From: Mobula hypostoma
Taxonomy: Eukaryota
DNA length: 64,000 nt
Assembly (NCBI RefSeq): GCF_963921235.1
Contig: NC_086097.1
Span: 3,906,001-3,970,000, forward strand
Direction of reading: 5' to 3'
Under the pieces are notes generated by a model that saw only the letters and a program-made list of their open reading frames with translations, did no database searches and was not told the DNA's origin. A program made the position numbers and the translations under genes. The first letter of the stretch is position 1. Each line of letters starts with the position of its first letter. Positions 5,955-59,964 of this stretch are shown piece by piece.

Positions 5955-8627
5955 AAAAACAAGGGAAAATCTGCAGATGCTGGAAATCCAAGCAACACAC
6001 ACAAAATGCTGGAGGAACTCAGCAGGCCAGGCAGCATCTAGGAAAAGAGCACAGTTTTCAGCAGGATTGGAGAAAAAAAAGATGAGGAGCAGAGTTAAAA
6101 AGTGGGGGGAGGGGGGAGAGAGAAACGCCAACTGATAGGTGAAACCAGGAGAGGGAGGGGTGAAGTAAAGAGCTGGGAGATTGATTGGTGAAAGAGATAG
6201 AGGGCTGGAGAAGGGGGAATCTGATAGGAGAGGACAGAGGAGCATGGAAGAAAGAAAGTGGGGTGGTGCACCAGAGGGAGGAGATAAGGTGAAAGAGGAA
6301 AAAGGGGATGGGGAATGGGGAAGGGCAGGTGGGGGCCTTTACTGGAATGTTGAGATATTGATGTTTTTGTCATCAGGTTGGAAGCTAACCAAACAGAATA
6401 TTATGTGTTGTTCTTCCAACCTGAGTGTGGCCTCATTGCAACAGTCAAGGATGCCGTGGATGGACATGTTGGAATAGGAATGGGAAGTGGAATTAAAATG
6501 GATGGTCACTGGGAGATCCCACTTTTCCTGGCAGATGGAGCATAGGTGCTCGGCGAAGTGGTCTCCCAATCCACGTGGGTCTCACCTAGATATAGGAGGC
6601 CACATCGGGAGCACTGGACACACTAGATGACCCCAACAGACTCACAGGTGAAGTGTTGCCTCACTTGGAAAGACTGTTTGGGCCCTGAATGGTAGTGAAG
6701 GTGTAGGTGTAGGGGCACTTGTTCCACTTGCAAGGATAAATGCCAGGAGGGAGATCAGTCGGGAAGGATGAATGGACAAGGGAGTCGTGTAAGGAATGAT
6801 TCCTGCGGAAAGCAGAAAGCGGGAGGGAGAGAAAGATCTGCTTGGTGATGGGATCCCGTTGGAGATAGTGGAAGTTGGGGAGAATTATGTGCTGGACGCT
6901 GGAGCTGGTTGGGTGGTACGATGATGGGGTGAGAGCAGACATGCATGAAATGGAAGAGGGCAACGTTGATGGTAGAGGAAGGGAAGCCCCTTTCTTTGAG
7001 GAAGGAGAACATCTCCTTCATTCTGGAATGAAAAGCCTCATCCTCAGAATGAATACTTTTACAAGTAAAAGGAAGAGAAGAGGTATAGTCCAGGTAGCTA
7101 AGAGAATCAGTAGATTTATAATAGACATCAGTAGATAAGCAGTCTCCAGAGAGAGAGAGAGAGAGAGAGACAGAGATCGAGAAAGGGGAGGGAGATGTCG
7201 GAAATAGACCAGGTAAATTTGAGGGCAGGGTGGAAGCTGGAGGCAAAGTGGATGAAATTGACGAGTTCCGCCTGGGTGCAGGATGCAGCACCGATGCAAT
7301 TGTCAATGTAGCTTAGGAAAAGTGCGGGATGGCCACCATTGTAGGCTTGGAACATGGACTGTTCTACGTAGCCAACAAACATGTGGGTGCCCGTAGTTAC
7401 ACCTTTTTTTTGAAGGAAGTGGGAGAAGCCAAAGGAGAAATTATTAAGATGAGGACAAGTTCTACTATGTGGAGGAGAGTGGTGGTGAGGGGAACTGGTT
7501 GGGTCCGGTGTCCAGAAAAAAACGGAGAGCTTTGAGGCCTTCCTGGGTGGGGGGGGGGCGGTGGAGGTATATAGGGACTGGACATTCATAGTGAAAATAA
7601 GATGGGGCTGGCCAAGGAAATTGAAATTATTGAAAAGATCAAGAGCGTGTGAAGTGTCACGGATATGGGTAGGAAGGGACTGAACAGCTTCTTCCCCTCT
7701 GCCATCCCATTCCTAAATGGACATTGAAGCTTTGGACACTACCTCACTTTTTTTAATATACAGTATTTCTGTTTTTGCACATTTTAAAAATCTATTCAAA
7801 ATACGTAATTCCATTTACTTGTTTATTTATTTTGTTTTATTTTATTTATTATTATGTTTTTCTCTCTCTCTGCTAGATTATGTATTGCATTGAACTGCTG
7901 CTGCTAAGTTAACAAATTTCACGTCACATGCCGGTGATAATAAACCTGATTCTGATTCGGATTCTGGTTCTGAACTAGTGGGGATAAAACAGAGTCGAGG
8001 TGTGCAGATACGAGTTCAGTGACGCAGGAACAAGCTGAAACAATAGATCTACCTGGACAAGCAGGTTTGTGGATCTTGGGGAGGAGGTAGAACTGGAAGG
8101 TGCGGGGTGCAGGAACTTTGAGGTTAGTGGCAGTGAATGGGAGATGCCCAGATCTAATAAGGTCGGTGATGTTGTGGGAGTCAATGGCCTGGTGGTCCTT
8201 GGTGGGGTCCTGTTCGAGGGGTAAGTAAGAGGAGGTGTCTAAGTGTTGTCGCTGGGCCTCTGCAAGATAGAGGTCAGTATGTCAGACTGCTACAGCACCC
8301 CCCTATCTGCGGGTTTCACGGTGAGGTTAAGATTAGTGCAGAGAGAGAATGGAGAGCAGAGCATTCGGAAGGAGCGAGGTTGGAATAGGAGAGAGGAGTG
8401 TTGAAGTCAAGACAGTTGACGTTCAGAGGGAGTGAGGTTGGAACTCCCCCATCTGGTTTCACCTATCTCTTTGTGCTTTCCCCTCCTCTTCCCCCACCCT
8501 TTAACTCTACTCTTCATCTCTTACTCTCCAGCCCTGCGAAAGGGTCTTGACACAAAACGTCGACTGTACACATTTCCATAGATGCTGCCTGGCCTGCTGA
8601 GTTCCTCCAGCATATTGTATGTGTTGC
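5955..8627 (-). mobile_element. Penelope-like retroelement remnant (RT + GIY-YIG endonuclease) with an inverted partial pLTR at 8444-8627
   Basis: Minus-strand peptides HFLQKKGV..GT, LFLSYIDNCIG, FHPALKFTWSIS..SLPFLDL (PLE RT) and FAEHL...DLPV..HFNS..HS...LEEQH.IF.L...QP (PLE GIY-YIG C-terminus). The 3' terminal repeat recurs inverted at the other end. A Rex-type tail is inserted at about 7686-7969 with a CTGAAC duplication. Confidence 0.85.
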
Positions 8628-8754
8628 ATTAATATAAATACATATGACAGCTTACACACATAGATTGATTGTATGTCCATAAAGTGACACTAGGCACAGG
8701 AGTGTGTGTACATAAGGTGACTGACAGGAAATGATAAATTTTTAATGGTTGGGG

Positions 8755-9500
8755 ATGTGGAGGGATGGACTAGTGGGTGGATATATAGAGTACACATATG
8801 GATTGTGGAGGGGTGGGTTAGTGGGTGGATATGTATGGAATGTGGAGGGGTGGGTTAGTGGGTGGATATATATGGATTGTGGAGGGGTGGGTTAGTGGGT
8901 GGATATAGAGTGTGGAGGGGTGGGTTAGTGGGTGGATATATATGGATTGTGGAGGGGTGGGTTAGTGGGTGGATATGTATGGAGTGTGGAGGGGTGGGTT
9001 AGTGGGTGGATATAGAGTGTGGAGGGGTGGGTTAGTGGGTGGATATATATGGAGTGTGGAGGGTGGGTTAGTGGGTGGTTATGTATGGAGTGTGGAGGGG
9101 TGGGTTAGTGGATATGTATGGCGTGTGGAGGGTGGGTTAGTAGGTGAATACATATAGGATACATATAGATTGTGGAGGGGTGGGTTAGTGGGTGGATATA
9201 TATGGATTGTGGAGGGGTAGGTTCGTGGGTGGATATGTATAGAGTGTGGAGGGGTGGGTTAGTGGGTGGATATAGAGTGTGGAGGGGTGGGTTAGTGGGT
9301 GGATATATATGGATTGTGGAGGGGTGGGTTAGTGGGTGGATATGTATGGAGTGTGGAGGGGTGGGTTAGTGGGTGGATACATATAGGATACATACGGATT
9401 GTGGAGGGGTGGGTTAGTGGGTGGATATATATGGAGTGTGGAGGGGTGGGTTAGTGAGTGGATATGTATAGGATACATATGTATTGTGGAGGGGTGAGTT
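8755..9500 (+). repeat. G-rich minisatellite, about 20 units, mostly 33-37 bp (TGTGGAGGGGTGGGTTAGTGGGTGGATATATATGGAT)
   Basis: Directly visible tandem array with variable AT-rich spacers. Confidence 0.95.
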
Positions 9501-16090: not shown

Positions 16091-16933
16091 CTTGGCAGAT
16101 GCAATTTAATGTGGATAAATGTGAAGTTATCCACTTTGGTGGCAAAAACAGGAAAACAGATTATTATCTGAATGGTGGCCGATTAGGAAAAGGGGAGGTG
16201 CAACGAGACCTGGGTGTCATTATACACCAGTCATTGAAAGTGGGCATGCAGGTACAGCAGGCGGTGAAAAAGGCGAATGGTATGCTGGCATTTATAGCGA
16301 GAGGATTCGAGTACAGGAGCAGGGAGGTACTACTGCAGTTGTACAAGGCCTTGGTGAGACCACACCTGGAGTATTGTGTGCAGTTTTGGTCCCCTAATCT
16401 GAGGAAAGACATCTTTGCCATAGAGGGAGTACAAAGAAGGTTCACCAGATTGATTCCTGGGATGGCAGGACTTTCATATGAAGAAAGACTGGATGAACTG
16501 GGCTTGTACTCGTTGGAATTTAGAAGATTGAGGGGGGATCTGATTGAAACGTATAAGATCCTAAAGGGATTGGACAGGCTAGATGCAGGAAGATTGTTCC
16601 CGATGTTGGGGAAGTCCAGAACGAGGGGTCACAGTTTGAGGATAGAGGGGAAGCCTTTTAGGACCGAGATTAGGAAAAACTTCTTCACACAGAGAGTGGT
16701 AAATCTGTGGAATTCTCTGCCACAGGAAACTGTTGAGGCCAGTTCATTGGCTATATTTAAGAGGGAGTTAGATATGGCTCTTGTGGCTACGGGGGTCAGG
16801 GGGTATGGAGGGAAGGCTGGGGCGGGGTTCTGAGTTGGATGATCAGCCATGATCATAATAAATGGCGGTGTAGGCTCGAAGGGCTGAATGGCCTACTCCT
16901 GCACCTATTTTCTATGTTTCTATTTTCTATGTT
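16091..16933 (+). mobile_element. Young 5'-truncated CR1 with an uninterrupted ORF2 C-terminus (244 aa)
   Basis: ORF 16099-16833 has no stops; (tctatgtt)n tail; closely similar to the copy at 32899-33699. Confidence 0.9.
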
Positions 16934-21889: not shown

Positions 21890-22031
21890 CGTCCTGACGA
21901 AGGGTCTCGGCCTGAAACGTTGACTGCGCCTCTTCCTAGAGATGCTGCCTGGCCTGCTGCGTTCACCAGCAACTTTGATGTGTGTTGCTTGAATTTCCAG
22001 CATCTGCAGAATTCCTGTTGTTTGCGTTTAA
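21890..22031 (+). mobile_element. Mini-Penelope pLTR insertion starting at the hammerhead motif (21891-21925), 13-bp TSD
   Basis: TSD ATTCTACCAACAA at 21877-21889 and 22032-22044; GUC CUGACGA...GAAAC GUU GACU. Confidence 0.8.
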
Positions 22032-24894
22032 ATTCTACCAACAATGGTTATATCATCAGCAAATTCATAGATGGTATTTGAGCTATGCCTAGACACACAG
22101 TCGTGCGTATATAGAGAGTAGAGCAGTGAGCTAAGTACACACCCCTGAGGTGCACCAGTGTTGATTATCAGCAAGGAGGAGATATTATCACCAATCCACA
22201 CAGACTGTGGTCTTCTGGTTAGGAAGTCACGGATCCAATTGCAGAGAAAGGTACAGAGGCCCAGATTTTGAAACTTATCAGTCGGGATTGTGGGAATGAT
22301 GGTGTAAATGCTGAGCTATGGTCCATGAACAGCAATCTGATATAGGTGCTCGTATTGTCCAGGTGGTCTCAGGCCATGGGAAAAGCCATTGAGATTGCAT
22401 CTACCGTTGACCTATTGTGACGATAGGCAGATTGCAGTGGGTCCAGGTCCTTGCTGAGGAAGCAGTTCAATCTAGTCGTGATCAACCTCTCAAAGCATTT
22501 CATCACTGTAGATGTTAGTGCTACTGGATGATAGTCATTAAGGCAGCTCACATTATTCTTCTTAATCACTGGTATAATTGTTGCCGTTTTAAAGCAAGTG
22601 GGAACTTCCATCCGTAGCAGTGAGAGGTTGAAAATGTCCTTGAATACTCCCGCCAGTTAGTTAGCACAAGTTTTCAGAGCCTTACCAGGTACTCCATCGG
22701 GACCTTCTGCCTTGTGAGGGTTCACCCTCTTTAAAGGCAGCCTAACACTGGCCTTCGAGACAGAGATCACAGGGTCACTGGGTGCAGCAGGGATCTTCAC
22801 AGCTGTAGTTATATTCTCCCTTTCAAAGCAGGCATGGAAGGCATTGAGTTCATCTGGTAGTGAAGCATTGCTGCCATTCATGCTACTGGGTTTCGCTTTG
22901 TCGGAAGTAATGACTTGCAAACCCTGCCAGAGTTGTCGTACATCTGATGTCACCTCCAACCTCATTCAAAATTGTCTCTTCACCCTTGAAATAGCCCTCC
23001 GCAAGTCATACCTGGTTTTCTGGTAGAGACTTGGGTCACCAGACTTCAATGCCACAGATCTAGCCTTTAGCAGACGACATAGCTCTTGGTTCATCCACAG
23101 TTATTGGTTTGGGAATGTACAGTAAGTCTTTGTAGGCACACACTCATCCACACAGGTTGTAATGAAGTCAGTAACAACTGCAGCACACACATCCAAATTT
23201 GAAGATGAATCTCTGAATAGTCCAGTCCACCAATTCAAAGCAGTCCTGCAGGCACTCCTGTGCTTCCCTTGTCCATACCTTCTTGGTCCTCACTACTGGT
23301 GCTGCAGTCTTCAGTCTCTGCCTATACTCAGGATGTAGAAGTACAGCCAGGTGATCAGACTTCCCGAAGTGAGGGCGTGGAATAGTACAGTAGGTGTTTT
23401 TGATGGTGGTATAACAATGGTCCGGTGTGTTGTTTCCTCTGGTATTGCAAGTGATCTGTTGATGGTAATTGTTTAATGATTTTTTTCAGACTGGCCTGGT
23501 TAAAATCTGCCAAAACGATGGTGAAGGCGTTAGGATGCGCTGTTTCGTGCATGTTGATCCCATTGCTCAGATCATCTAAAGCCTGATTGACTTTGGCCTG
23601 AGGTGGAATGTATACCGCTTCCAAAATAATCACAGAAATCTCCCATGGTAGGTAAAATGGATGGCACTTAACTGCTAGATATTCCAGGTCTAGTGAGCAG
23701 AATTGGGACAGCACTGATATATTCGTGCACCAAGAGGAGTTGATCATGAGGCAAACTCCTCCACCTCTGCTTTTGAGAGACTCTATAGATATATCCTGAC
23801 AGTGTATAGTAAATCTGTCGATCTGAATTGCTGCATCCGGTATGGAAGGGGTTAACCAGGATTCCCTAAAATAAAGGACACTTGCGGTCCTTTGCCCTTT
23901 CAACAGCTTCTCCTCACTACACATTGCCTCTTTTTGTAAACCAGCTACCTCATCTTCAACACTATCATCTGCCTTTCCTGCAATACTTCTTGCATTGAAA
24001 TATAAGCAGCTCAGGACGCTGGTTGAACCATGCTCAATCTTTTGATTCCTAAACAGCAGGAATTCTGCAGATGCTGGAAGTTCAAGCAACGCACATCAAA
24101 GTTGCTGGTGAACGCAGCAGGCCAGGCAGCATCTCTAGGAAGAGGTACAGTCGACATTTCAGGCCGAGACCCTTCGACGTTTCAGGCCTAACTTTGTCTG
24201 AGGTCTTACCAACATCTGTCTCCACAACCTCTCCACTTACTGTTCTGCCACTCTGGTTCCCATTGCTCGTTCGTCCTGGGTGAGTCTAGGACCAGAAAGC
24301 ACTACCTCAGAATAGAGGGACATCCCTTTTGAAGAGAGATGAGGAGGAACTCGCACAAAATGCTGGAGGAACTCAACAAACCAGGCAGCATCTATGGAAA
24401 AGAGTACAGTCAACATTTTAGGCCAGGACCCTTCAGCAGGACTGGAGAGTAAAATATGAGGAGTAGAGTTAGAAGGTGAGAGAAGGGAAGAAGAAACACA
24501 AGGTGATAAGTGAAATAGGGAGCGGGAGGGGTGAAGTAAAGAGTTGGGAAGTTGATTAGTGAAAGAAATACAGGGCTGGAGAAGGGGGAATCTAATAGGA
24601 GAGGACAGAAGGCCATGGAAGAAGGAAAAGGGGAGGACCTCCAGAGGGAGGTGATGGGCAGGCAAGGAGATAAGGTGAGAGAGAGAGAGAGATAAGGGAA
24701 TGGGGGGGGGGGAGGCATTACCAGAAGTTGAGTTCCTCAGGCATTTTGTATGTATTGTCTGAAAAGAACAGTTAATGAAGATCAGTACTGATGGTTGGAT
24801 CTCAAAATGTAGGTATAATGATGGTGCGAAATAAGTGTTTCATGAAGTTAGATTTTCCACATGCACATACCTAATTGTATTCAATTTCAATAGT

Positions 24895-26250: not shown

Positions 26251-26544
26251 ATACTGTTTGAGAAATTTTCCATAGATGCTGCCTGGCCTGCTGAGTTCCT
26301 CCAGCATTTTGTGTGTGTGTTGCTCTGGATTTCCAGCATCTGCAGATTTTCTCTTGTTGGAGATGAAGAGGAATTTCTTTTGCCAAAGGGTGGTGCATCT
26401 CATTGCCACAGATGGCTGTGGAGTCTAAGTTATTTGAAGCAGAGGCTGATAGGTTCTTGCTAGTAAGGGAGGAGACTGGGGTTGGCAGGGAAAATGGATC
26501 CTCCATGATCCTTTGGTGGGACAGACTGGATGGGCCAAATGGCC

Positions 26545-27391: not shown

Positions 27392-27489
27392 TGTCCTGAC
27401 GAAGGGTCCCGGCCCAAAACGTCGATTGTACCTCTTCCTATAGATGCTGCCTGGTCTGCTGCGTTCACCAGCATTTTTTGTGTGTGTTG
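27392..27489 (+). mobile_element. Mini-Penelope pLTR insertion with a mutated hammerhead, 14-bp TSD
   Basis: TSD CAGGAAGTTTAGGG at 27378-27391 and 27490-27503; the GAAA box is changed to AAAA. Confidence 0.8.
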
Positions 27490-28320: not shown

Positions 28321-31300
28321 GTGTGGGAGAAGATGTCCACTCTCAAAGAGGAGATGTGGAGAGAAATAGAGAAAAAATATGAGAATGAAGTGAGCATCAC
28401 TGAGTCATGGCTGAAAGAAGGTCTTAGTTGGGAATAGCGTCCAAGGATCTACTTTGTTTCAAAAGGACAGGCTGGAAGCCATAGGCGGTAGTGTGGCTAT
28501 AGGCTAATGGGTGTATGGGATTGAGGGGGATCTAGGATCAGCCATGATGGAATGGTGGAGCAGACTCTGGGCTGAATGGCCTAATTCTGCTTCTATGTCT
28601 TTGCCCTCTTCATCATCAAGGATACCTTTAAAAGGTGGTGACTTCTATCATTAAAGACCCTCACCGTCCAGGACATGCCCTCTTATTGCTAACAGTTTCA
28701 ATTCGTGGGGAAAAAGTGAACTGTTTCATTTGACAAGTTTCACTTCAGACCTAGGCCTCAGCAAGGGCCCATTGTAACCCCTTGAACTAAGTAGCTAGGG
28801 GGAAGTCCTGGTAAGGTAAAGAGAAAGGAATAAGCAATGGTGCTGAATATTTAAATGGGTTGTAATGACCACAATCTGTCAGGAATAGACAATGCAAACA
28901 AATGCACAGGATCAGGAAATACTGCAAACTCAGTCAGCTCCATCATGGGTACGAGCCTCCACAGCACCTTCAAAAAGCAATGCCTCAAAAAGGCAGCATC
29001 CATTATTGAGGTCTCTCATCACCCAGGACATGCCCTCTTGTCATTGCTACCATCAAGGAGGAGGTACAGGAGCCTGAAAGACACACACTCAATGTTTTAG
29101 GAAGAGCTTCTTCCCCTCCACCATCACATTTCTGAATGCACAATGAACCTCTTTTTGAACTATGTGTTTAATTTATGATATATGTGTATATGTAACATAA
29201 ATTTTATATATAATTGTAATTTATAACTATTATTACTGCTGCCATTAAAACAACAAATTTCATGACATATGCCAGTGATATTAAGCCTGATTCTGGAATG
29301 TCTCCAGTTAAAAGTCAGAACCGGGAATAATGTCACAAGTAAATGTGTGTTTGCACATTACACAGTTCATTTACATTAATACCAGTGAATCCTCCATTTT
29401 AAAAGTTTGGATTATGTTTGTTTCTATGCCACTTCAGTTAACCTCATTTCATCATGAAAACTATATCTTGTTATATTTTCAGAATTAAGTTAGCAGGAAA
29501 TATGATGCGTTCCCCAAATGCAAGTAGCATTCATAGCAGGAATTTAAATATGATTATCCACTTTGGATGGAAAAATATAAGGGAGGAATATTTCTTTTTA
29601 TTTGACAAAAGAATGAAATGAGCTGATGTTCAAAGGAACATCCTTGCACACGAGCACATGTTCAAAGGATATCCTTGCACATGAGGTCATAGAAGGTTAA
29701 AGTACACTTGGTGCGAGTGATAAGAAAACAGGACATTGAAACAGGAGATTCTGCAGATGCTGAAAATCCAGAGCAACACTCACAAACTGAGGGAGGAACC
29801 AGCAGGTCAGACAGCATGTATGGAAATGAATAAACAGTCGATGCTTCAGGCTGAGGGCTGACTCTTCATCAGCAAGTAATAAAGCCCAGGGAATATAAGT
29901 AATAAGTCAAAATCTAAAGGGTGGAAATTAATTTTATTCAATGCTTTGTGTTCAGATTCTGTGGTATGGAAACACCAGTGTCTTTGAAAGGAAAATCCTA
30001 CAAAAAGTAGTGGATTTGGCCCAGTATATCAGGGGCAACCCCCTTCCAACCATTAAGCACATCTACATGAAATACTGTCGTAGAAAAGCAGCATCCATCA
30101 TCAGAGATGCCTCCCCCCCACTCTTCTTTCACTGCTGCCTCAGGAGCGAGAGTACATGCCTCAGGACTGTCACCACCAGGTTCAAGAACAGTTACCCATC
30201 AGGCTCTTGAAGAAAGGGCCTGATATCAACACTATCTCTGAGCCCTTTGTCTCTTCCACCAATCAACTTCCCAGCTCTTTACTTCACCTCTCTTCCTCTC
30301 CCGGTTTCACCTCTCACCTACCACCTTGTACTTCTTCCTCCCCTTGCCCCACCTTCGTACTCTGACTTCTCAGTCCCGAAGAAGGGTCTCATCCCGAAAC
30401 ATCGACTGTTTACTCTTTTCCATAGATGCTGCCTGGCCTGCTGAGTTCCTCCGGCATTCTGTGTGTGTTATTTGGATTTCCAGCATCTGCAGATTTTCTC
30501 GTGTTTGGCATAACTACACTCACTTGCCCATCCATTGAGATGTTCCCACAACCAATGATTCACTTTAAGGGCTCTTTATCTTGTAATCTCATGCTCTTGT
30601 TATTTATAACTATTTATTTATACATGCATTTGCACAGTTTGTTGTCTTCTGCACTCTGGTTGACCTTTCGTCGATCCTGTTTACAGTTACCATTCTATAG
30701 ATTTGCTGAGTATGCCCGCAGGAAAATGAATCTCAGGGTTGCATATGGTGACAAGTAAGTACTTTGATAATAAGTTTACTTTAAATTTTGAAAACGTATG
30801 CAAAATGCATTCAGAGGTACGCCAGTTAACATTGTTCATGCCACAAGCTTTATGGCAATATGGGGATTTGCACCCTAACTTGTTCTACTCTTCCATTGGT
30901 TGTGACCCAATTTATGTCGGATCTCACCAATGTACAGAATGGTATATCAGCATTTATTGTGAGAACACTGCCATACAGATGACTCCTGTATTATGGCAAA
31001 CTTCAAAGTAAATTTATTATCAACACACGACTATGTCACCTGAGATTCAATTTCTTGTGGGCATATTCAGTAAATCTGTAGAATAATAACCATAACGAAA
31101 TCAATGAAAGACCGCCAAACTTTAGTGTTCAACCAGAATGCAGATGACAGCAAACAGTGCAGATATAAAAAGAAAGAAAGAATAATAAACAAGCAATAAA
31201 TAGAGAACATGAGATGAAGACTCTTTGGAAGTGAGTCCATAGGTTGAGGTAATAGTTCAGTGATGGGGTGAGTGAAGTTATCCCCATTGGTTGTGAGTTG

Positions 31301-32199: not shown

Positions 32200-32410
32200 C
32201 TGGGGGAATTCAGCAGGTCAGGCAGCATCTATGGAAAGAATTAAACTGTTGATGTTTTGGGCTGAGATCTCTTACCGGTCCTGATGAAGGATCTCAGACT
32301 GAAACATTGACTGTTTATTTCTTTCCATAGATACATCCTGACCTGTTGAGTGCCTTCAGTATTTTGTGTGTGTTGCTTTGGATTTCCAACATCTGCAGAA
32401 TCTCTCGTGT
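32200..32410. mobile_element. Older palindromic mini-Penelope; hammerhead-like motif at 32277-32312
   Basis: An inverted arm at 32200-32273 faces CUGAUGA...GAAACAUUGACU. Confidence 0.7.
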
Positions 32411-32419
32411 TTATTATTA

Positions 32420-34200
32420 AGAGGATATTAGAGAAGAGTATGAACTCCATCATATTATGATCACTGTCTCCTGAGAGTTCCTTTACATTAAGCTCCCTAA
32501 TAAGATCTGGTAATGAAACAACACCCAATCTAAGATAGTTTTCCCTGAGTAGGCTCAAGCACAAGCTGCTCTAAAAAGCCATCTCATAGGCATTCAACAA
32601 TTCCCTCTCTTGCGATCTAACAACAACCTGATTTTCCCAATCACCTTGCATACTGAAATCCCCAATTACAATTGTGTTGTTACCCTTAATACATATCTTT
32701 TCCAGCTCCCTTTGCGGTCTCAACCCCACATCTTAGCTACTGTTTGGAGGCCTATATATGATTCCCATAATGGCTTTTTCACCCTTGCAATTTCTTAACT
32801 CTACCCATAAAGATTCGACATTTTCTGACCCTATGTCACCTCTTTCTAAAGATGTAATTCCATCTCTTAGCAACAGAGCCACACTACCGCCTATGCCTTC
32901 ATAGAAACATAGAAAATAGGTGTAAGAGTAGGCCATTCGGCCCATCGAGCCTGCACCGCCATTCAGTATGATCATGGCTGATCATCCAACTCAGAACCCT
33001 GTACCTGCCTTCTCTCTATACCCCCCTGATCCCTTTAGCCACAAGGGCCATATCTAACTCCCTCTTAAATATAGCCAATGAACTGGCCTCAACTGTTTCC
33101 TGTGGCAGAGAATTCCACAGATTCACCACTCTCTGTGTGAAGAGGTTTTCCTCATCTCGGTCCTAAAAGGCTTCCCCTTTATCCTCAAACTGTGACCCCT
33201 CGTTCTGGACTTCCCCAACATCGGGAACAATCTTCCTGCATCTAGCCTGTCCAATCCTTTTAGAATTTTATACGTTTCAATCAGATCCCCCCCCTCAATC
33301 TTCTAAATTCCAGAGAGTATAAGCCTAGTCGATCCAGTCTTTCATCATATGAAAGTCCTGCCATCCCAGGAATCAATCTGGTGAACCTTCTTTGTACTCC
33401 CTCTATGGCAAGAATGTCTTTCCTCAGATTAGGGGACCAAAACTGCACACAATACTCCAGGTGTGGTCTCACCAAGGCCTTGTACAACTGCAGTAGTACC
33501 TCCCTGCTCCTGTACTCGAATCCTCTCGCTATGAATGCCAGCATACCATTCGCCTTTTTCACCGCCTGCTGTACCTGCATGCCCACTTTCAATGACTGGT
33601 GTACAATGACACCCAGGTCTCGTTGCACCTCCCCTTTTCTTAATCGGCCACCATTCAGATAATAATCTGTTTTCCTGTTCTTGCCACCAAAGTGGATAAC
33701 CTGCCTGTCCTTTCGATACAAAGTATGCCCTTTGACGTTAAGTTCCCAACTATGGCCTTCTTTCAGCCACGACTCAGTGATACCCACAACATCATACCGA
33801 CTAATTGCGCTTAGTGTTCATCCACCTTGTTCTGAATGCTATGCGCATTTAAATACAGCACCTTCAGTCCTGTATTCTTTGCCCTTTTGAATTTTGCGTC
33901 TGTGGTACAATTTAACACTTTGCTCTGTCTGCATTTGTACCCAATCATTGGCTTGTCCTTCCTCACATTCATGTTACACTCATCCTCGACTTGTAAACCT
34001 GCTGGCTCATCCTCAGCTCTATCATACTGGTTCCCATTTCCCTGCCATATTAGCTTAAACCACTCTCAACAGCTGTAGTAAACCTGCCCGCAAGAATTTT
34101 GGTCCCCCTTGGATTCAAGTGCAAGCTGTCCCTTTTGTACAGGTCCCACCTGCTCCAGAAGAGGTCCCAATTATCCAGGAATGTGAATCCCTGCCTCCTG
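32420..34200 (-). mobile_element. CR1 5' portion (ORF1 esterase end + APE) hosting a young CR1 3' end at 32899-33699
   Basis: FLDNWDLFW.R.DLYKRD.LHLNPRGT.ILAGRF (ORF1 SGNH/esterase-like), GITESWL, ESLWVELRN.KG...GIIYRPPNS. Confidence 0.85.
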
Positions 34201-36012: not shown

Positions 36013-36243
36013 TTGGACAATGGGATGACCCATTGGGCACCCTTTGAGAGAAGGGTAGTGCAGTCTGATGTGACCAGAATGAACATTAAATTTTCCTGAA
36101 TGCTATTGGTATCACTTTGCTTTGGAAACTGAAGTAGAAAACCTCAGTTATTAAAGAAGAACGACATGTAGCAAAGCAAATATAGCTCCTCCTCATTTAA
36201 CGAAGGACACTTTTGATGGCATCCTTTCTGGTTTATCTGCCAC
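36013..36243 (-). mobile_element. Helitron 3'-end fragment, same family as 60285-61501
   Basis: Closely matches 60285-60503, including the terminal hairpin. Confidence 0.75.
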
Positions 36244-36750
36244 ATGCAGGTTGGAGGAACAACACCTTATATTCCATCTCGGTAGCCTCCAACCTGGTGG
36301 CATGAACATTGACTTCTCTAACTTCCGTTAATGCCCCTCTTCCCCTTCTTGCCCTATCCCTTATTTACTTATTCCTTTTTTTCCTCTCTCTCTGTCCCTC
36401 TCACTATAACTCCTTGCCTGCTCTCCATCTTCCTCTGGGCTCCCCTCCCCCTTTCTCTCTCTCTAGGCCTCCCGTCCCATCATCCTCTCATATCCCTTTT
36501 GCCAATCACCTGTCCAGCTCTTAGCTCTATCCCTCCCCCTCCCGTCTTCTCCTATCATTTCAGACCTCCCCCTCCCACTTTCAAATCTCTTACCATCTCT
36601 TCTTTCAGTTAGTCCTGACGAAGGGTCTCGGCTCGAAACTTCGACTGTGCTTCTTCCTGTGGATGCTGTCTGGCCTGCTGTGTTCCACCAGCATTTTGTG
36701 TGTGTTGCTTGAATTTCCAGCATCTGCAGATTTCCTCGTGTTTGCGTTTT
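36244..36750 (+). mobile_element. Penelope-like 3' fragment (GIY-YIG end + pLTR with hammerhead motif at 36611-36646)
   Basis: RLEEQHLIFHLGSLQPGGMNIDFSNFR*, then a pyrimidine-rich UTR and the shared terminal repeat. Confidence 0.8.
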
Positions 36751-37350
36751 TATTGTCAAAGTATGCATGTATAATACAACTTTGATATTTGTCTTATCCA
36801 GATAACCATTAAATACAGAAAGACCATGGGTGTTGATGAAAGAAAAGGCATCAACTCCCCCCATCCCTGACTGGAAGGAAAAAGAAAAGAAACAAAACTC
36901 GCAGGCCCCCAAAACACTTAAACTTTTTTAATTGTTCACCCTGTACAAGCTTCATACTTGGCAGGCATGACATTGAAACTTTCAACAATTGACACTGCAA
37001 GAAGGGAGAGTAATAGTATTTCTACCCATCAGCTCCAACCTTCTTTCTTCATTCCCCTCCTTCCTCCCCCCCCCACCCTATTCTGGGGTCTTCCCCCATC
37101 CTGTGGAGTCCTGAAGAAGGGTCTCGGCCTGAAACATCGACTGTTTATTCACTTCCATGGATGCTGCCTGACCTGCTGAGTTCCTCCAGCATTTTGTGCG
37201 TGTGAGCAATAGTATGTTATATTTTTGTTGAATTATCAGAATCAGCTGTATGCTGTGAAATTTGTTATTTTGAGAGCAATACGGTGCAATAGATAACCCG
37301 TACTGTAGGTTACAAGAAGAAATACATTAAAAAACAAGTAGTGCGAAAAC

Positions 37351-37846: not shown

Positions 37847-38243
37847 GTATGATTTTATTTTTAAATTATGTGAAGGAAAGTATTGCTGTTTTTCATCATG
37901 TGTACTATGGTAACACGAATTAAATTGTACAGTAAGTCACTATCTGTGTCAATCAGAATCGGGTTTAATATCACTGGAATATGTCATGAAACTTATTTTG
38001 TGGCAGCAGTACATTTTAATACATAATTAAAAACTAAACTACAATGAGAAAAAATGTTTGCACAAGTTATGTGTATATAATGCAAACAGAACATGTCTCT
38101 CTATGGTAATCTTCGGGAGAGTCTAGATTTACTGCAACTTGTGGATTGCATGCACATGGGACAGAGAATACAGTCACATCTTTTTTAAAAAAAAACTTTG
38201 CCTGGATTTGCATTTTTGCCAGAGTTTTAAGTGAATAGTTTAG

Positions 38244-38640
38244 AAACACACACAAAATGCTGGAGGAACTCGGCAGGTCAGGCAGTATCAATGGAAATGA
38301 ATAAACAATCGATGTTTCGGGCTGAGACTCTTCTTCAGGACTGGAAAGGAGGGGGGAAGATTCGGGAATAAAAAGGTGAGGGGAGGGGAAGGAGGGCAGT
38401 TAGAAGGTGATGGGTGAAGCCAGGTGGGCTGGAGGGGACCCAAGGGAGGTGATAGGTGAGGAGCAGAGGCAAGAGGCCAGAGTGGGGAACAGAAGAAAAG
38501 GAAGGGGAAAAATATTACCAGAAGGAGAAATCTATATTCAGGCCGTCAGGTTGAAGGCAACACAGACAGAATATGAGATTGGCCTCATCATGGCCAAAGA
38601 GGAGACCATGGATTGACATGTTGAACGGGAATGGGAAGCC
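38244..38640 (-). mobile_element. Penelope-like 3' fragment (hammerhead-like motif 38307-38342)
   Basis: Homologous to 5995-6490; a similar minus copy lies at about 24352-24730. Confidence 0.7.
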
Positions 38641-40367: not shown

Positions 40368-41489
40368 GTAAGTATTTCATTTCTGAAACGTGGTAAATTT
40401 AAGATTTTATTAGTCTTCTGTCTCAACTACTCAAAATGTCACATTTGATAATGTAATGGGATTTGACCCTGTAATCATCTGCAGTAGTGATTTCAACTGG
40501 AGGTCTGCTTGGCTAAAAAATGATCTGTCCAGGCAAATCTAAAGCCAACCCAGAATGAACCTAAAAGGGCATACAGTTACCGTTCTTGATGCTTATCGAA
40601 CATGATTAGGTCCTGTTGGGTTCAAGTCAGGTTGCCAACCTCTACTGAACCAGGGTGCATTTAAGACCATAAGCTATACGAGCAGAATTAGGCCATTTGG
40701 CCCATCGAGTCTGTTCTTCCATTTCAGCATGGCTGATCTATTTCCCTCTTGGCCCCAAATCTCCCCGTATCCCTTCATGCCCTGACCAATCAAGAATCTA
40801 TGAGCCTCTACCTTAAATATACATAAAGGCTTGGCCTCCATAGCCGCCTGTGGCAATGAATTCCACAGATTCACCACACATGCGCGTGTACCTACAGCTC
40901 AGAGACTGCAGCGGTTCAAGAACGCAGCTCAATGCCAGCTTCTCAAGGATAACTAGGGATGGGCAATAAATGCTGACTTGATGGCAATGCCCACATCCTG
41001 TAAATGAATAAAAATGTTTAAAAATGTGAAGAAATTCCTCCTCGTCTCCTCGTATCCATTCTAGACTTGCATTGAGCTAGCTGCTATCTGGTTTGAAGGA
41101 CTGATGAAGGGTCTTGGTCTGAAATGTTGACTGTACGCTTTCTCCTTGGATGCTGCCTGGCCTGCTGAGTTCCTCGTATGCTTATTTTCTAGCCCACCAG
41201 CCTCTACATTCAGTGTCATTTCTGTCACCTTCAGCAGGATTCTATCACCAGTTGTGCCTTTTCTTCCCTTCCCCTTTCAGTTATTGTGGAGGGAATAGAC
41301 CCTTTGAGATTCACTGGTCCAACCTTCCATCTCCGTCCGCGTTCTTTTTATGTAGGAGATGTAACATCTGTCCTTTTTTGTCACTCCTTCCAAGCATTCG
41401 GGGACCCAAAATTTCCTTCCAGGAGAAGCAATGGTTCACTTGGACTTCCACCACTTTAATATACTGGGTGCGCACAATATGGTGTCCTA

Positions 41490-43260: not shown

Positions 43261-43480
43261 AACAACAGGAATTCTGCAGATGCTGGAAATTCAAACAACA
43301 CACATCAAAGTTGCTGGTGAACGCAGCAGGCCAGGCAGCATCTCTAGGAAGAGGTACAGTCGACGTTTCAGGCCGAGACCCTTCGTCAGGACTAAGGTCT
43401 CGGCCTGAAACGTCGATTGTACCTCTTCCTAGAGATGCTGCCTGGCCTGCTGTGTTCACCAGCAACTTTGATGTGTGTTG
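43261..43480. mobile_element. Palindromic mini-Penelope (head-to-head pLTR fragments) with a 14-bp TSD
   Basis: Inverted arms at about 43296-43380 and 43396-43480; TSD ATCTAACATACCTT at 43247-43260 and 43481-43494. Confidence 0.85.
43358..43393 (-). ncRNA. Minimal type I hammerhead ribozyme motif (intact core)
   Basis: The reverse complement reads AGUC CUGACGA AGGGUCUCGGCCU GAAAC GUC GACU. Confidence 0.72.
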
Positions 43481-50661: not shown

Positions 50662-51641
50662 CTGAAAATAAAACTTTATGTTCAGCTTACTTTTCATAGA
50701 ACTTCAGATTTCAATTCAGTTTAGATAACACTTTTCTCCTGAAAATAAACTTATTTGTGGTTGCAATATGATTAACATTGAAAGATGATGGACCACACTT
50801 GGATAAGCAGGTGATAAGAGATTCAGGCATCCATTTTACACCAACCCTACCCTAACCCATTCTATTCTCCAACATCAGCTCTCCGCAGAATCTATAACCC
50901 ACTGCGCAATTTACAGGTTATAAACACACGATTCTACAGATGCTGGAGAAACTCAGCAGCCCAGGCAGCACCTATCAAAATGAATAAACAGTCAATGTTT
51001 TGGGCCCAGATAGATGCTGCCTGACCTACTGAATTCCCCTAGTATTTTTTGTGTTCCAAGTGATAAGAGAATAATGGTTAAATATTAAGAAATAAACTTT
51101 AACATTTTAAGTACTATATTTCAGCTTCATGTGTATCAATGGTTATTTCACATTGTATGTTCAATGTTAAATATTAACTGTACAACTTTTTCCTCACTTT
51201 GAGCGAGAATCATGGATGGAACTAGTGTGCTTGATAACATTGTCAGCAGAGAACTTCTCAAACAGGAATGTCTGGATTTGTCTACAAGTATGAACATCCC
51301 AGCGCGTTTAGCAACCTGTTATTTATAAAATGCTGACACAGTAGCCACAATACTGTAGCGGTTAGCACAATGCTATTACAGCTTGTGGTGGTGGAATTTG
51401 GTGTTCAATTCCGGTGCCGGCTGTATGTTCTCCCTATGAACCCTGTGGGTTTTCGCCAGGTGCTCTGGTTTCATCCCACATTCCAAAGACCTACCGGGGG
51501 GTAGGTTAATTGGTCATTGCAAACTGCCCTGTGATTAGGGTAGTGTTAGTTAGGTTGGTTGCTGGTGGTGCGACTCATTTGGCTGGACGGGCCTGTTCAA
51601 TGCTATATCTCTATATAAACAAATACAAAATTATTACTTAC

Positions 51642-51934: not shown

Positions 51935-52470
51935 ATGCACATTACAGGCCCTTCAGACCACAATGTTGTACCGACCATGTAACCTACTCTAGAAACTGCC
52001 TAGAATTTCCCTAGCGCATAGCCATCTATTTTTCTAAGCTCCATGTACCTATCTAAGACTCTGTTGGATCTGCTGCCAGCAGTGCAGCCGCCACTCTCTG
52101 TGTGGGGAAAAACTGGCTCTTGACATGCCCTCGGTACCCATTTCCAAGCACCTTAAAACTATGCCCCCTTGTGTTAGCCATTTCAGCCTTGGGGAAAAGC
52201 CTCTGGCTATCCACATGAACCATGCCTCTCATCATCTTATACACCTCTATCAGGTCACCTCTCATTCTCCATCACTTCAAGGAGAAAAAGCTAAGTACAC
52301 TCAACCTATTCTCATAAGGTACACCTTCCAACCCAGGCAACATCATTGTTAATCTCCTGTGCACTCTATAGTATCCACATCCTTCCTGTGGTGAGGTGAC
52401 CAGAACTGAGCACAGTATTCCAACTGTGGGATTGAGTTCAAGAGCCATGAGGTAATGTTACAGATATACA
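51935..52470 (-). mobile_element. CR1 3' end
   Basis: MRGDLIEVYKMMRG...RLFP.AE...TRGH. Confidence 0.75.
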
Positions 52471-52474
52471 AGCC

Positions 52475-52992
52475 ACACTCAGGTTGGAGGAACAACACCT
52501 TATATTCCATCTGGGTAGCCTCCAACCTGATGGCATGAACACTGATTTCTCTAACTTCTGTTAATGCCCCTCCTCCCCTTCTTACCTCATCCCATATTTA
52601 TTTATTTTTACCCCCCCCCCTTCTCCTCTCTCTGCCCCTCTCACAATCACTGCTTGTCTGCTCTCCATGTTCTTCTGGGCTCCCCTCCCCCTTTCTTTCT
52701 CCCTAGGCCTCCCGTCCCATGATCCTCCCCTTCTCCAGTCTTGTATCCCTTTTGCCAATCAACTTTCCAGCTCTTAGCTCCATCCCTCCCCCCCGATCAT
52801 TTCTGATCTCCCCCTCCCCCTCCCACTTTCAAATCTCTTACTACCTCTTCTTTCAGTTAGTCCTGACGAAGGGTCTCAGCCTGAAACGTCGACTGTACCT
52901 CTTCCTATAGATGCTGCCTGGCCTGCTGCGTTCCACCAGCATTTTGTGTGTGTTGCTTGAATTTCCAGCATCTGCAGATTTCCTCATGTTTG
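52475..52992 (+). mobile_element. Penelope-like 3' fragment (GIY-YIG end + pLTR)
   Basis: Same structure as 36244-36750. Confidence 0.8.
52859..52894 (+). ncRNA. Minimal type I hammerhead ribozyme motif (intact core)
   Basis: AGUC CUGACGA AGGGUCUCAGCCU GAAAC GUC GACU: stem I AGUC/GACU, conserved CUGANGA and GAAA boxes, GUC cleavage triplet, ACGU palindrome in place of stem III. Confidence 0.72.
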
Positions 52993-58887: not shown

Positions 58888-59107
58888 AACAACAGGAATT
58901 CTGCAGATGTTGGAAATTCAAGCAACACACATCAAAGTTGCTGGTGAACGCAGCAGGCCAAGCAGCATCTGTAGGAAGAGGTGCAGTGGACGTTTCAGGC
59001 CGAGACCCTTCGTTAGTCCTGACGAAGGGTCTCGGCCTGAAACGTCCACTGCACCTCTTCCTACAGATGCTGCTTGGCCTGCTGCGTTCACCAGCAACTT
59101 TGATTTG
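58888..59107. mobile_element. Palindromic mini-Penelope with a 14-bp TSD; hammerhead motif at 59015-59050 (+)
   Basis: Inverted arms; TSD TTGGTTACACTAAT at 58874-58887 and 59108-59121. Confidence 0.85.
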
Positions 59108-59964
59108 TTGGTTACACTAATGTCATGATGTAATTTGCTCAATTCAAATCTCAACGCAGAAAGTTGTGAAACTGCTTTCAATAAATCAGCTAAATGGTGG
59201 GGTTGCAGAAAGGAGAGCAATCATGGAAGCCACAGTGTTATGGCAGAAGTTCAGAAAGGGGCAGACATGTGGCTTTTATATTAACATACAATATATAGTA
59301 CTGAAGGAAGTACTTATTTTAGGCATTTAATAATGAAGTTCTACTGTTAACCAAGCAAGTTCTGTTTTGTTTGGTTGTATTCTTGTACGCTTGAATGATA
59401 ACTAAACTTGAACTTGAGGATCTTTTACTGAGTTTTGAAATTAATGCACAGTATTCCTCAGTATGCTTTTCACCCTGATATTTTTTGAGAAAATTTACAA
59501 GGATGCTGCCAGGACTTGAGGACCTGAGTTATAGGTAAAGACTTTCATTCCACAGAAAGAAGAAAAATGAGAGGAGATTTTACGGATGTATACAAAAGTA
59601 TGAGGAGTGTAGTAATTGCAAGCTGTCTTTTTCCACTTAGTCTGGGTGAGACTAGGACTAGAGGTCATGGGTTAGGGATAAAATGGGAAACATTTAAGGG
59701 GAAAATGAGGTGGTGAGAATGTGGAACAAGCTGCTAGTTTAAGTAGTAGATGCAACTTCGAGTTCAACATTTAAAAGAAATTTGGATAGGTACATGGATG
59801 GGAGTGGTATGGAGGGCTATGGTCTGGGTGAAGGTTGATAGGACATGGCCAATTAATAGTTTGGCATGGACTAGATGGGCTGAGATGCCTGTTCCTGTGC
59901 TATAATGTTTTACAACTCTTTGACGTGGTGCAAAAGCTGGTAAGTGAAAATTTATGATATTTAC

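What the first reader, a model, noticed from the sequence alone, without database searches (positions are those of the whole stretch)
52859..52894. A dispersed family of minimal hammerhead ribozymes carried by Penelope-derived mini-elements
Seen: a 36-nt motif AGUC-CUGANGA-AGGGUCUCRGCCU-GAAAC-GUC-GACU recurs about 15 times. It is intact at 52859-52894 (+) and 43358-43393 (-), and near-intact at 21891 and 59015. Mutated or partial copies lie near 8532, 24149, 24408, 27393, 29837, 30372, 32277, 36611, 37107, 38307 and 41101. It always sits in the terminal repeat that follows the Penelope GIY-YIG ORF. Known: CUGANGA, GAAA and a UH triplet form the hammerhead core, and Penelope-like elements carry minimal type I hammerheads whose stem III is reduced to a short palindrome and which cleave as dimers. 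Here stem III is just ACGU with no loop, so it can form only between two copies. Inference: an abundant SINE-like repeat of this genome is a ribozyme-bearing pLTR mobilised by the Penelope RT.
Basis: partly seen in the sequence, partly recalled or inferred. Interest (0 to 1): 0.72.

Follow-up and report, generated by a model that had tools for sequence, protein, structure and literature searches.

The report
Penelope-element minimal hammerheads in ray DNA
The repeated 36-letter motif is a real small self-cutting RNA motif of a kind already known from Penelope-type jumping genes, carried here by many dead, shortened copies of such an element in a ray-like fish, so it is ordinary in kind.

Summary
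The motif is real: all 15 named positions hold a copy, but only 3 of 19 insertion events have a fully canonical hammerhead. It is the minimal type I hammerhead of the pseudo-LTR of a Neptune-type Penelope-like element (decayed RT + GIY-YIG copy at 5957-8423), as described in 2014. Distant relatives carry the same motif behind the endonuclease with fully compensated stem I. 'Always follows the ORF' is wrong (4 of 19 events), and no independent SINE is shown: these are 5'-truncated or solo pLTRs with 13-14-bp target duplications, two 3' ends (tail) and fold-back pairs. Five of 24 arms start at the 5' edge of stem I and none at the cut site, so the copied RNA was uncut, in line with a 2024 in vitro study. 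Cleavage is untested. The scan has reported this family repeatedly in this genome and in sharks (e.g. e1-7807631, e1-7809226, e1-7858714). Low interest.

The parts
52472..52564 (+). Last ~30 codons and stop of the GIY-YIG endonuclease of a 5'-truncated Penelope-like copy
   Evidence: Translation ATLRLEEQHLIFHLGSLQPDGMNTDFSNFC* matches the C-terminus of the decayed ORF at 6342-6575; contigs from public runs continue upstream of 52470-52472 into further coding sequence (table 7)
52565..52858 (+). Pyrimidine-rich spacer of the pLTR, ending in a polypyrimidine tract and CAG/TAG (3' splice-site-like; also initiator-like TTAGTCC)
   Evidence: Sequence; shared with copies at 36239, 5957, 24345, 30241, 38242; splice-site and initiator consensus are recalled, function untested
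52859..52894 (+). Minimal type I hammerhead: stem I AGUC/GACU, core CUGACGA, A9.1, stem II GGGU/GCCU with 4-nt loop, GAA, palindrome ACGU, C17; predicted cut between 52890 and 52891
52895..52958 (+). pLTR downstream of the hammerhead, up to the first 3' end (tail-less copies end here)
   Evidence: 10 of 24 arms end at +88 to +106; loose ends at 52955-52959
52959..52992 (+). About 35-nt optional tail, ending at the second 3' end
   Evidence: 11 of 24 arms end at +132 to +134; loose ends at 52989-52992
5957..8423 (-). Decayed 5'-truncated Penelope-like element: RT, Cys linker remnant, GIY-YIG, pLTR with a partly deleted hammerhead and tail; interrupted by another repeat at about 7686-7972
   Evidence: tblastn with P0005, P0014, P0016, P0017, E down to 1e-60; homologues carry RVT_1 and GIY-YIG
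8444..8633 (+). Inverted, tail-less pLTR abutting the 5' end of the 5957-8423 element; hammerhead damaged (C at core position 6)
   Evidence: flanks share AATATAAAT
21890..22031 (+). Solo short copy with tail, canonical hammerhead (U17, 3-bp stem I), starting at +1/+2; 13-bp target duplication
27392..27489 (+). Solo short copy without tail, starting at +1 to +3; 14-bp target duplication; G12 changed to A
43261..43480 (.). Fold-back insertion: minus arm starts at +1 with intact hammerhead (43358-43393) and tail, plus arm starts at +14 without tail; 14-bp target duplication
58888..59108 (.). Fold-back insertion: plus arm starts at +1 without tail, minus arm starts at +8 with tail; both arms share G1.1 to C; 14-bp target duplication
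32200..32412 (.). Older fold-back insertion: plus arm from about +2 with tail, minus arm from +11 without
24051..24193 (-). Short copy starting at +9 behind a 13-nt internal duplication; tail present
24345..24749 (-). 5'-truncated copy starting near the ORF stop; CUGC core and G12 changed; no tail
36239..36744 (+). 5'-truncated copy with GIY-YIG end, hammerhead with ACUU at stem III, tail
38242..38638 (-). 5'-truncated copy with GIY-YIG end, ACAU at stem III, no tail
30241..30507 (+). 5'-truncated copy, U4 changed and ACAU at stem III, tail
37019..37203 (+). 5'-truncated copy, intact core, ACAU at stem III, no tail
29739..29872 (-). Older short copy starting at about +5, damaged motif, tail
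41101..41442 (+). Copy starting at about +5 that jumps after +76 into the RT-EN linker region of the ORF (motif CRRCNIC)
   Evidence: 63% identity over 227 nt to the 5957-8423 element, E 8e-10; translation
50940..51054 (.). Old small fold-back remnant (arms start at +16 and +49)
26266..26358 (+). Short copy that starts at +44, downstream of the hammerhead; tail

Best explanation
The motif is the minimal type I hammerhead that belongs to the pseudo-LTR of a very abundant Neptune-type Penelope-like retroelement of a ray. In an active tandem element one transcript carries two copies of the motif, which can swap strands to form a double hammerhead (stem III from the two ACGU palindromes) and cut after C17, probably weakly and with help from the element's protein (inferred from published relatives, not tested). 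The dispersed copies are dead by-products of ordinary Penelope insertion: the endonuclease makes a staggered cut about 14 bp apart, reverse transcription starts inside the RNA at one of two sites about 100 and 134 nt behind the start of the motif (the ends without and with tail), and stops early. Priming on both target strands gives fold-back pairs. The shortest copies run back through the cut site to the 5' edge of stem I, so their templates were uncut. Shown: sequence anatomy, link to RT/GIY-YIG, covariation, target duplications, two 3' ends, clustering of 5' ends. Inferred: dimer cleavage, the priming steps, the cause of the 5' edge.
For: Decayed RT + GIY-YIG ORF directly upstream of the same repeat, with an inverted pLTR at its 5' end. 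Relatives at roughly 30-65% protein identity: of 23 endonuclease ends with at least 300 nt downstream, 15 show a clear core within about 80-250 nt, found without asking for stem I, and 13 of these 15 pair at the first three stem I positions with different letters. In 10 family representatives, A9.1 is 10 of 10, stem II positions 1-3 pair in 30 of 30, ACGU in 8 of 10. In contigs of four public runs (9,868 to 104,304 laid per run), only 2 of the 40 listed variant rows lie in the motif: a loop II change and G.U to G-C at 10.1-11.1 (52 rows not shown). Target duplications of 13-14 bp at 4 short insertions. One arm with and one without tail in 4 of 5 two-armed events. All of these features are described for PLEs (PMC4209133, PMC3846280, PMC8557442, PMC11167929).
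Against: No cleavage or expression data. Folding predicts that the monomer locks its core (GACG pairs with CGUC, probability about 0.93) and that the double-hammerhead form (-11.5 kcal/mol, no tertiary terms) is far less stable than inactive dimers (-25.2). The monomer fold is not more stable than shuffles (z -1.5). Only 3 of 19 events have a canonical motif. No full-length intact element lies in the window, so the tandem transcript is assumed. The stem I count of 30 of 30 was partly built into the descriptor; the unbiased count is the 13 of 15. Clade assignment rests on the linker motif, not on a tree.
Confidence: 0.85

Rival explanations
1. The ~95-135-nt copies are an independent non-autonomous (SINE-like) element: short copies are themselves transcribed and re-mobilised in trans by the Penelope protein.
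For: The youngest subfamily (21890, 24149, 43358, 58985; 92-97% identical) is short in 4 of 4 events. Both arms of the 58888-59108 insertion share four differences from the 43358 copy (three not seen in any other copy of that subfamily), including G1.1 to C, so the template was probably an already diverged copy. pLTRs are reported to act in cis for mobilisation in trans (PMC3846280), and retrozymes are proposed as non-autonomous PLE derivatives (10.64898/2026.07.22.740005).
Against: 7 of the other 15 events extend upstream into spacer or ORF; 0 of 4 versus 7 of 15 is not significant (about p 0.13, by hand). No B box or tRNA head, no poly(A) tail, no tandem arrays of the unit in the window. Contigs of the family continue into coding sequence in all four runs. 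Shared arm differences could also come from conversion between arms.
Confidence: 0.25
2. The motif is kept as a structural or protein-binding signal (or marks a promoter or splice boundary), and self-cleavage is negligible or dispensable in vivo.
For: 0 of 24 arms start at the cleavage product (+33), 5 start at +1/+2. Two independent events share a CUGC core (24408; 5957/8530), a change reported to cut Mg2+ activity strongly (PMC7151607), and 6 of 6 events of the TGTTTA-type subfamily have non-palindromic ACAU. In the anole element, catalytic mutants did not affect insertion in vitro and no reads began or ended at the cut site (PMC11167929); 8 of 9 Xenopus dimers did not cleave (10.64898/2026.07.22.740005).
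Against: The exact catalytic consensus (CUGANGA, GAAA, UH) and stem pairing are kept across distant families, which is hard to explain without catalysis. ACAU can arise by CpG decay after insertion. An earlier scan note (e1-7790562, unchecked) reports one insertion that starts at the cut site.
Confidence: 0.3
3. The sharp 5' edge at stem I is not the RNA's 5' end but a road block: reverse transcriptase falls off where splicing factors bind the polypyrimidine tract and AG just upstream, or where the two cDNA arms anneal through the motif's own inverted repeats.
For: A polypyrimidine tract plus YAG lies at -1 to +2 in most long copies; in D. virilis Penelope the intron's 3' end maps to the 5' end of helix I and the start site lies 46 nt upstream of that intron (PMC4209133, PMC2377424). 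Fold-back junctions show short microhomologies.
Against: Two solo copies with target duplications (21890, 27392) have the same edge without a second arm. No spliced copy is seen in the window and no matching joint is among the 15 listed (190 not shown). The copy at 41101 starts near the edge and continues into ORF sequence, as a transcript that begins there would.
Confidence: 0.35
4. Chance resemblance of one repeat family to a hammerhead, multiplied by copy number.
For: All window copies descend from one family, so they are not independent; no Rfam hit.
Against: The same core with different, compensated stems at the same place in unrelated-sequence pLTRs.
Confidence: 0.02

Closest known systems
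Minimal hammerheads (min-HHR) in the pLTRs of metazoan PLEs (Cervera and De la Pena 2014, PMC4209133; parts 1-2 of 4 read, figures and supplements not seen)
   Same: Type I, 4-5-bp helix I, extra nucleotide between 9 and 10.1, palindromic 15.2-16.2 with no loop 3, location in pLTR, thousands of dispersed single copies 'probably related to truncated PLEs', pairs on opposite strands; reported for Xena, Poseidon and Neptune elements of fishes.
   Different: Cartilaginous fish are not named in that paper's main text. The young subfamily here has G10.1.U11.1 in place of the usual G-C, and a 4-bp stem II.
Poseidon element of Anolis carolinensis, PAc (Frangieh et al. 2024, PMC11167929; parts 1-2 of 4 read)
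   Same: Two internal RT start sites that bound the tail, both target strands cut and extended, AT-rich targets, uncut RNA as the main template, protein-assisted hammerhead.
   Different: PAc is Poseidon clade and its ORF starts in stem II; this element has the Neptune/Nematis-type Cys linker and no start codon in stem II. Here the evidence is genomic only.
Tandem/inverted PLE insertions with optional 30-40-bp tail (Arkhipova et al. 2013, PMC3846280, parts 1-2 of 5; Craig et al. 2021, PMC8557442, passages)
   Same: 5'-truncation, adjacent inverted pLTR, tail on one of the inverted pLTRs, short target duplications, solo pLTRs.
   Different: Target duplications here are 13-14 bp (8-10 bp in the rotifer examples); many insertions are reduced to the pLTR tip.
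Non-LTR retrozymes (Li et al. 2026 preprint 10.64898/2026.07.22.740005; parts 1-3 of 5 read)
   Same: Type I hammerhead, pLTR origin, monomeric dispersed copies; one chondrichthyan was in their sample.
   Different: Retrozymes are defined by head-to-tail tandem units; none is in this window, the copies are solo or head-to-head.

Membership tests
PLE minimal type I hammerhead | Core CUGANGA ... GAAA ... UH | tested here: met
   52863-52890; intact in 3 of 19 events together with all stems
PLE minimal type I hammerhead | Helix I of 4-5 bp at the open end, helix II, with covariation | tested here: met
   13 of 15 relatives found without a stem I demand pair at three positions with different letters; stem II 30 of 30 in 10 representatives
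PLE minimal type I hammerhead | Extra nucleotide 9.1 and G10.1-C11.1 | tested here: met
   A9.1 in 10 of 10; G-C in 8 of 10 and G.U in 2, among them this copy; C11.1 is a major variant in public contigs
PLE minimal type I hammerhead | Palindromic 15.2-16.2 with no loop 3 | tested here: met
   ACGU at 52886-52889; 8 of 10 families; decayed in 10 of 20 arms that cover it or deleted
PLE minimal type I hammerhead | Self-cleavage as a dimer, none as a monomer | not testable with these tools
   Only folding energies, which do not favour the active dimer
Endonuclease-positive Penelope-like element | RT followed by C-terminal GIY-YIG endonuclease | tested here: met
   5957-8423 (-) aligns with RT and GIY-YIG of P0016/P0017; the window fragments alone gave no Pfam hit
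Endonuclease-positive Penelope-like element | pLTR, adjacent inverted 5'-truncated copy, optional 30-40-bp tail, target duplication | tested here: met
Endonuclease-positive Penelope-like element | Full-length copy in partial tandem | tested here: inconclusive
   None in the window; no genome held; one tandem-type joint 52958 to 52502 in contigs
Neptune clade | CX2-5CxxC motif in the RT-EN linker (shared with Nematis) | tested here: met
   CRRCNIC in the 41101 copy, decayed CKWNKCPY in the 5957 copy, CNHHLCHTC in P0016; motif as given in PMC8557442
Neptune clade | RT phylogeny with reference Neptune and Nematis elements | not tested
   No named reference sequences were at hand
SINE | Pol III promoter (A and B box) or RNA-gene-derived head | tested here: not met
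   No B box at one mismatch with a recalled consensus, only loose A-box matches; no tRNA
SINE | Lineage independent of the autonomous element | tested here: inconclusive
   4 of 4 young events short, 7 of 15 others long
Non-LTR retrozyme | Head-to-tail tandem units each with a hammerhead | tested here: not met
   No such array among 20 TRF rows; a few unit-to-unit joints in public contigs (52950 to 52859) suggest they exist elsewhere

The most novel reading that the evidence does not exclude
The Penelope transcript begins at the first base of the hammerhead, so the ribozyme is the very 5' module of the RNA, and the abundant 95-135-nt repeats are run-off cDNAs primed at the two internal start sites of uncut RNA, one site per target strand. 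Whole subfamilies with disabled cores (CUGC) or without the palindrome (ACAU) would then have amplified, making the ray genome a natural mutagenesis experiment that shows cleavage to be dispensable for Penelope mobility.
Probability: 0.3. Interest if true: 0.45.

Novelty: new member of a known kind. Interest (0 to 1): 0.16.

Why it matters
The kind is known since 2014, so the finding itself adds a host lineage and little else. What could be useful is the scale: the role of the PLE hammerhead is still open, and a genome with very many dated copies allows a purely computational test of where reverse transcription stops and whether subfamilies with broken cores kept spreading.

Tried and rejected
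Whole-genome search: no genome held, so no genome-wide count or tree. Rfam: no hit at gathering score in the window and only one chance hit at E 0.12 around the motif. Exact-pattern scans for more copies: 0 in viral contigs and 0 in metagenome contigs. Pfam on five decayed window fragments: 0 families. Sequencing runs: no RNA holder listed, and all four runs laid were contigs, which cannot show starts, ends or expression; this is no evidence either way. Core-versus-flank conservation inside the window: 13 shared differences in the 36-nt motif (mostly CpG decay) against 21 in the next 36 nt, too few copies for a test. One search had off-by-one registers in 4 rows and was replaced. The 13-nt duplication at 24149 ends exactly at C17, but a CGA microhomology explains it without cleavage. 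A spliced form joining the ORF stop region to the motif was looked for in the window and in the listed joints and not seen. Sequence look-up among earlier findings gave nothing. Paper searches and the texts read did not show a description of 5' ends clustering at stem I or of this family in rays; supplements of these papers were not seen and may list it.

Full report
Observation. The 36-nt motif stands at 52859-52894 (+) as written. An ungapped scan at up to 13 mismatches gave 16 matches, which cover 14 of the 15 named positions; the copy at 29837 needs gaps. With partial copies I count 24 arms in 19 insertion events (the arms were chosen by me from the BLAST lists). The loose core pattern occurs 9 times against 1.02 expected, and a descriptor with 4-bp stems gives 4 hits against 0 in 100 shuffles. 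Rfam reports nothing. By my reading only three copies (52859, 43358, 21890) have core, palindrome and stem I all intact.

Anatomy. Taking 52859 as +1: stem I AGUC (+1 to +4) pairs with GACU (+33 to +36); the core CUGACGA is followed by an unpaired A, stem II GGGU/GCCU with a 4-nt loop, GAA, ACGU and C17 at 52890. Stem III has no loop, so A15.1-U16.1 and C15.2-G16.2 can only form between two copies. As a monomer the RNA is predicted to keep stems I and II and to lock the core by pairing GACG with CGUC (probability about 0.93). The double-hammerhead form scores -11.5 kcal/mol against -25.2 for the best inactive dimer (tertiary contacts are not modelled). This fits the low or protein-assisted activity published for such motifs, and is no proof of activity.

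The host element. Upstream of the motif lie about 290 nt of pyrimidine-rich spacer and the last 30 codons of an ORF. The same repeat closes a decayed element at 5957-8423 (-), which aligns with RT and GIY-YIG proteins at E down to 1e-60; an inverted pLTR abuts its 5' end at 8444-8633. The best protein relatives come from rays and sharks, the top one from Mobula hypostoma at 58%. A CX2CxxC linker motif places it with Neptune or Nematis by the criterion of PMC8557442; no tree was built.

Covariation. A protein alignment fetched 80 metagenome loci of related elements (83 confirmed, 80 kept). A descriptor scan found the motif in 13 of the 80 loci, plus one dubious match. In ten family representatives, the window's included, A9.1 is invariant, the first three pairs of stem II hold in 30 of 30 cells, ACGU is present in 8 of 10, and stem I differs between families (AGUC/GACU, ACA/UGU, CGA/UCG, UUCAA/UUGAA, UCC/GGA, ACC/GGU) while pairing in 30 of 30 cells against 15.6 for permuted strands. 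As the descriptor asked for three stem I pairs, I repeated the search without that demand: of 25 endonuclease ends, 23 had at least 300 nt downstream, 16 showed a core, one of them dubious and dropped, and 13 of the remaining 15 paired at all three positions. In contigs of four public runs (92,991, 104,304, 9,868 and 15,256 laid), 2 of the 40 listed variant rows fall in the motif, a loop change at 52878 and G.U to G-C at 52882, against four positions in the 36 nt before and six in the 36 nt after; 52 rows were not shown.

How the copies were made. Four short insertions have 13-14-bp target duplications. The 3' ends are two: 11 of 24 arms end at +132 to +134, 10 at +88 to +106, 3 elsewhere, and public contigs break off at 52955-52959 and 52989-52992 into AT-rich flanks. 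In 4 of 5 two-armed events one arm has the tail and the other lacks it. This is the genomic signature that PMC11167929 traces to two internal RT start sites and extension on both target strands, and that PMC3846280 and PMC8557442 describe as the optional tail on inverted pLTRs.

The 5' ends. Five of 24 arms begin at +1 or +2, two at +5, eight lie upstream in spacer or ORF, nine between +8 and +66, and none at +33, where a cleaved RNA would begin. Four of the five are bounded by a target duplication or a fold-back junction. A rough binomial test gives p about 0.002 for the 16 ends between +1 and +70 (ends typed in, arms not fully independent). One metagenome locus (L063, about 6640-6820) shows the same fold-back with its turn at the 5' edge of the motif. 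The templates were therefore uncut. Whether +1 is the transcription start (TTAGTCC fits a recalled initiator consensus; the 41101 copy starts near there and runs on into ORF sequence) or a road block at a splice-acceptor-like site (the D. virilis intron ends at helix I, PMC4209133; start site 46 nt before that intron, PMC2377424) cannot be told here. I noted this clustering before consulting earlier findings; a note on a shark-like genome says the same (e1-7858714), while another reports a single insertion that starts at the cut site (e1-7790562).

Signs that cleavage may be dispensable. Both arms of 58888-59108 share G1.1 to C; two events share a CUGC core, a change that strongly lowers Mg2+ activity in other hammerheads (PMC7151607); 6 of 6 events of one subfamily have ACAU in place of ACGU while decayed copies of the others show AUGU in 3 cases and ACUU in 1. 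These are small numbers and CpG decay confounds them.

Comparison with what is known. The motif meets every sequence feature of the min-HHR of PMC4209133; only cleavage is untested. It is not shown to be a SINE (no B box, no tRNA; independence inconclusive) nor a tandem retrozyme. Papers seen: PMC4209133 parts 1-2 of 4 and a word search; PMC11167929 parts 1-2 of 4; 10.64898/2026.07.22.740005 parts 1-3 of 5; PMC3846280 parts 1-2 of 5; passages of PMC8557442, PMC7151607 and PMC2377424. No figures or supplements were seen; they may list chondrichthyan motifs. Hammerhead numbering, splice-site and initiator consensus are recalled.

Verdict. A correct catch of a known kind of element, already reported several times by this scan in the same genome. 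New member of a known kind, interest 0.16.

Noticed in passing
window 41101-41442 (+): A pLTR copy jumps after +76 into the RT-EN linker of the ORF, apparently through a short shared word: an internally deleted element or a template switch.
   Followed up: partly
window 29837, 30372, 32277, 37107, 38307, 51008: All six events of the TGTTTA-type subfamily read ACAU at stem III, never AUGU; may be a subfamily trait and not CpG decay.
   Followed up: partly
window 24408 (-), 6053-6065 (-), 8530 (+): Core begins CUGC instead of CUGA in two independent events.
   Followed up: partly
window 24711, 38520, 6339, 52560 (ORF stop region): A GT precedes or overlaps the stop codon in the long copies (GGTAAT, CAGTAAAG, GTTAAT), and the spacer ends in a polypyrimidine tract and AG: the spacer could be an intron. 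No spliced copy seen.
   Followed up: partly
window 16126-16923 and 32901-33700: An 800-bp repeat pair at 94.8% identity in opposite orientation, part of another abundant dispersed family.
   Followed up: no
window 8797-9469: Minisatellite of 37-nt period, about 18 copies, strongly strand-skewed.
   Followed up: no
L008 1005-1133 and 3536-3663; L063 about 6640-6820: [quoted passage not shown]
   Followed up: partly
proteins P0004, P0009, P0010: Database gene models of rays named as host enzymes (for example nicotinamide riboside kinase 1 isoform X1) contain pieces of this element's RT; either annotation artefacts or exonised copies.
   Followed up: no
window 51937-52470: The 52472 copy is joined at its 5' end to remnants of other repeat families, without a target duplication.
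   Followed up: no
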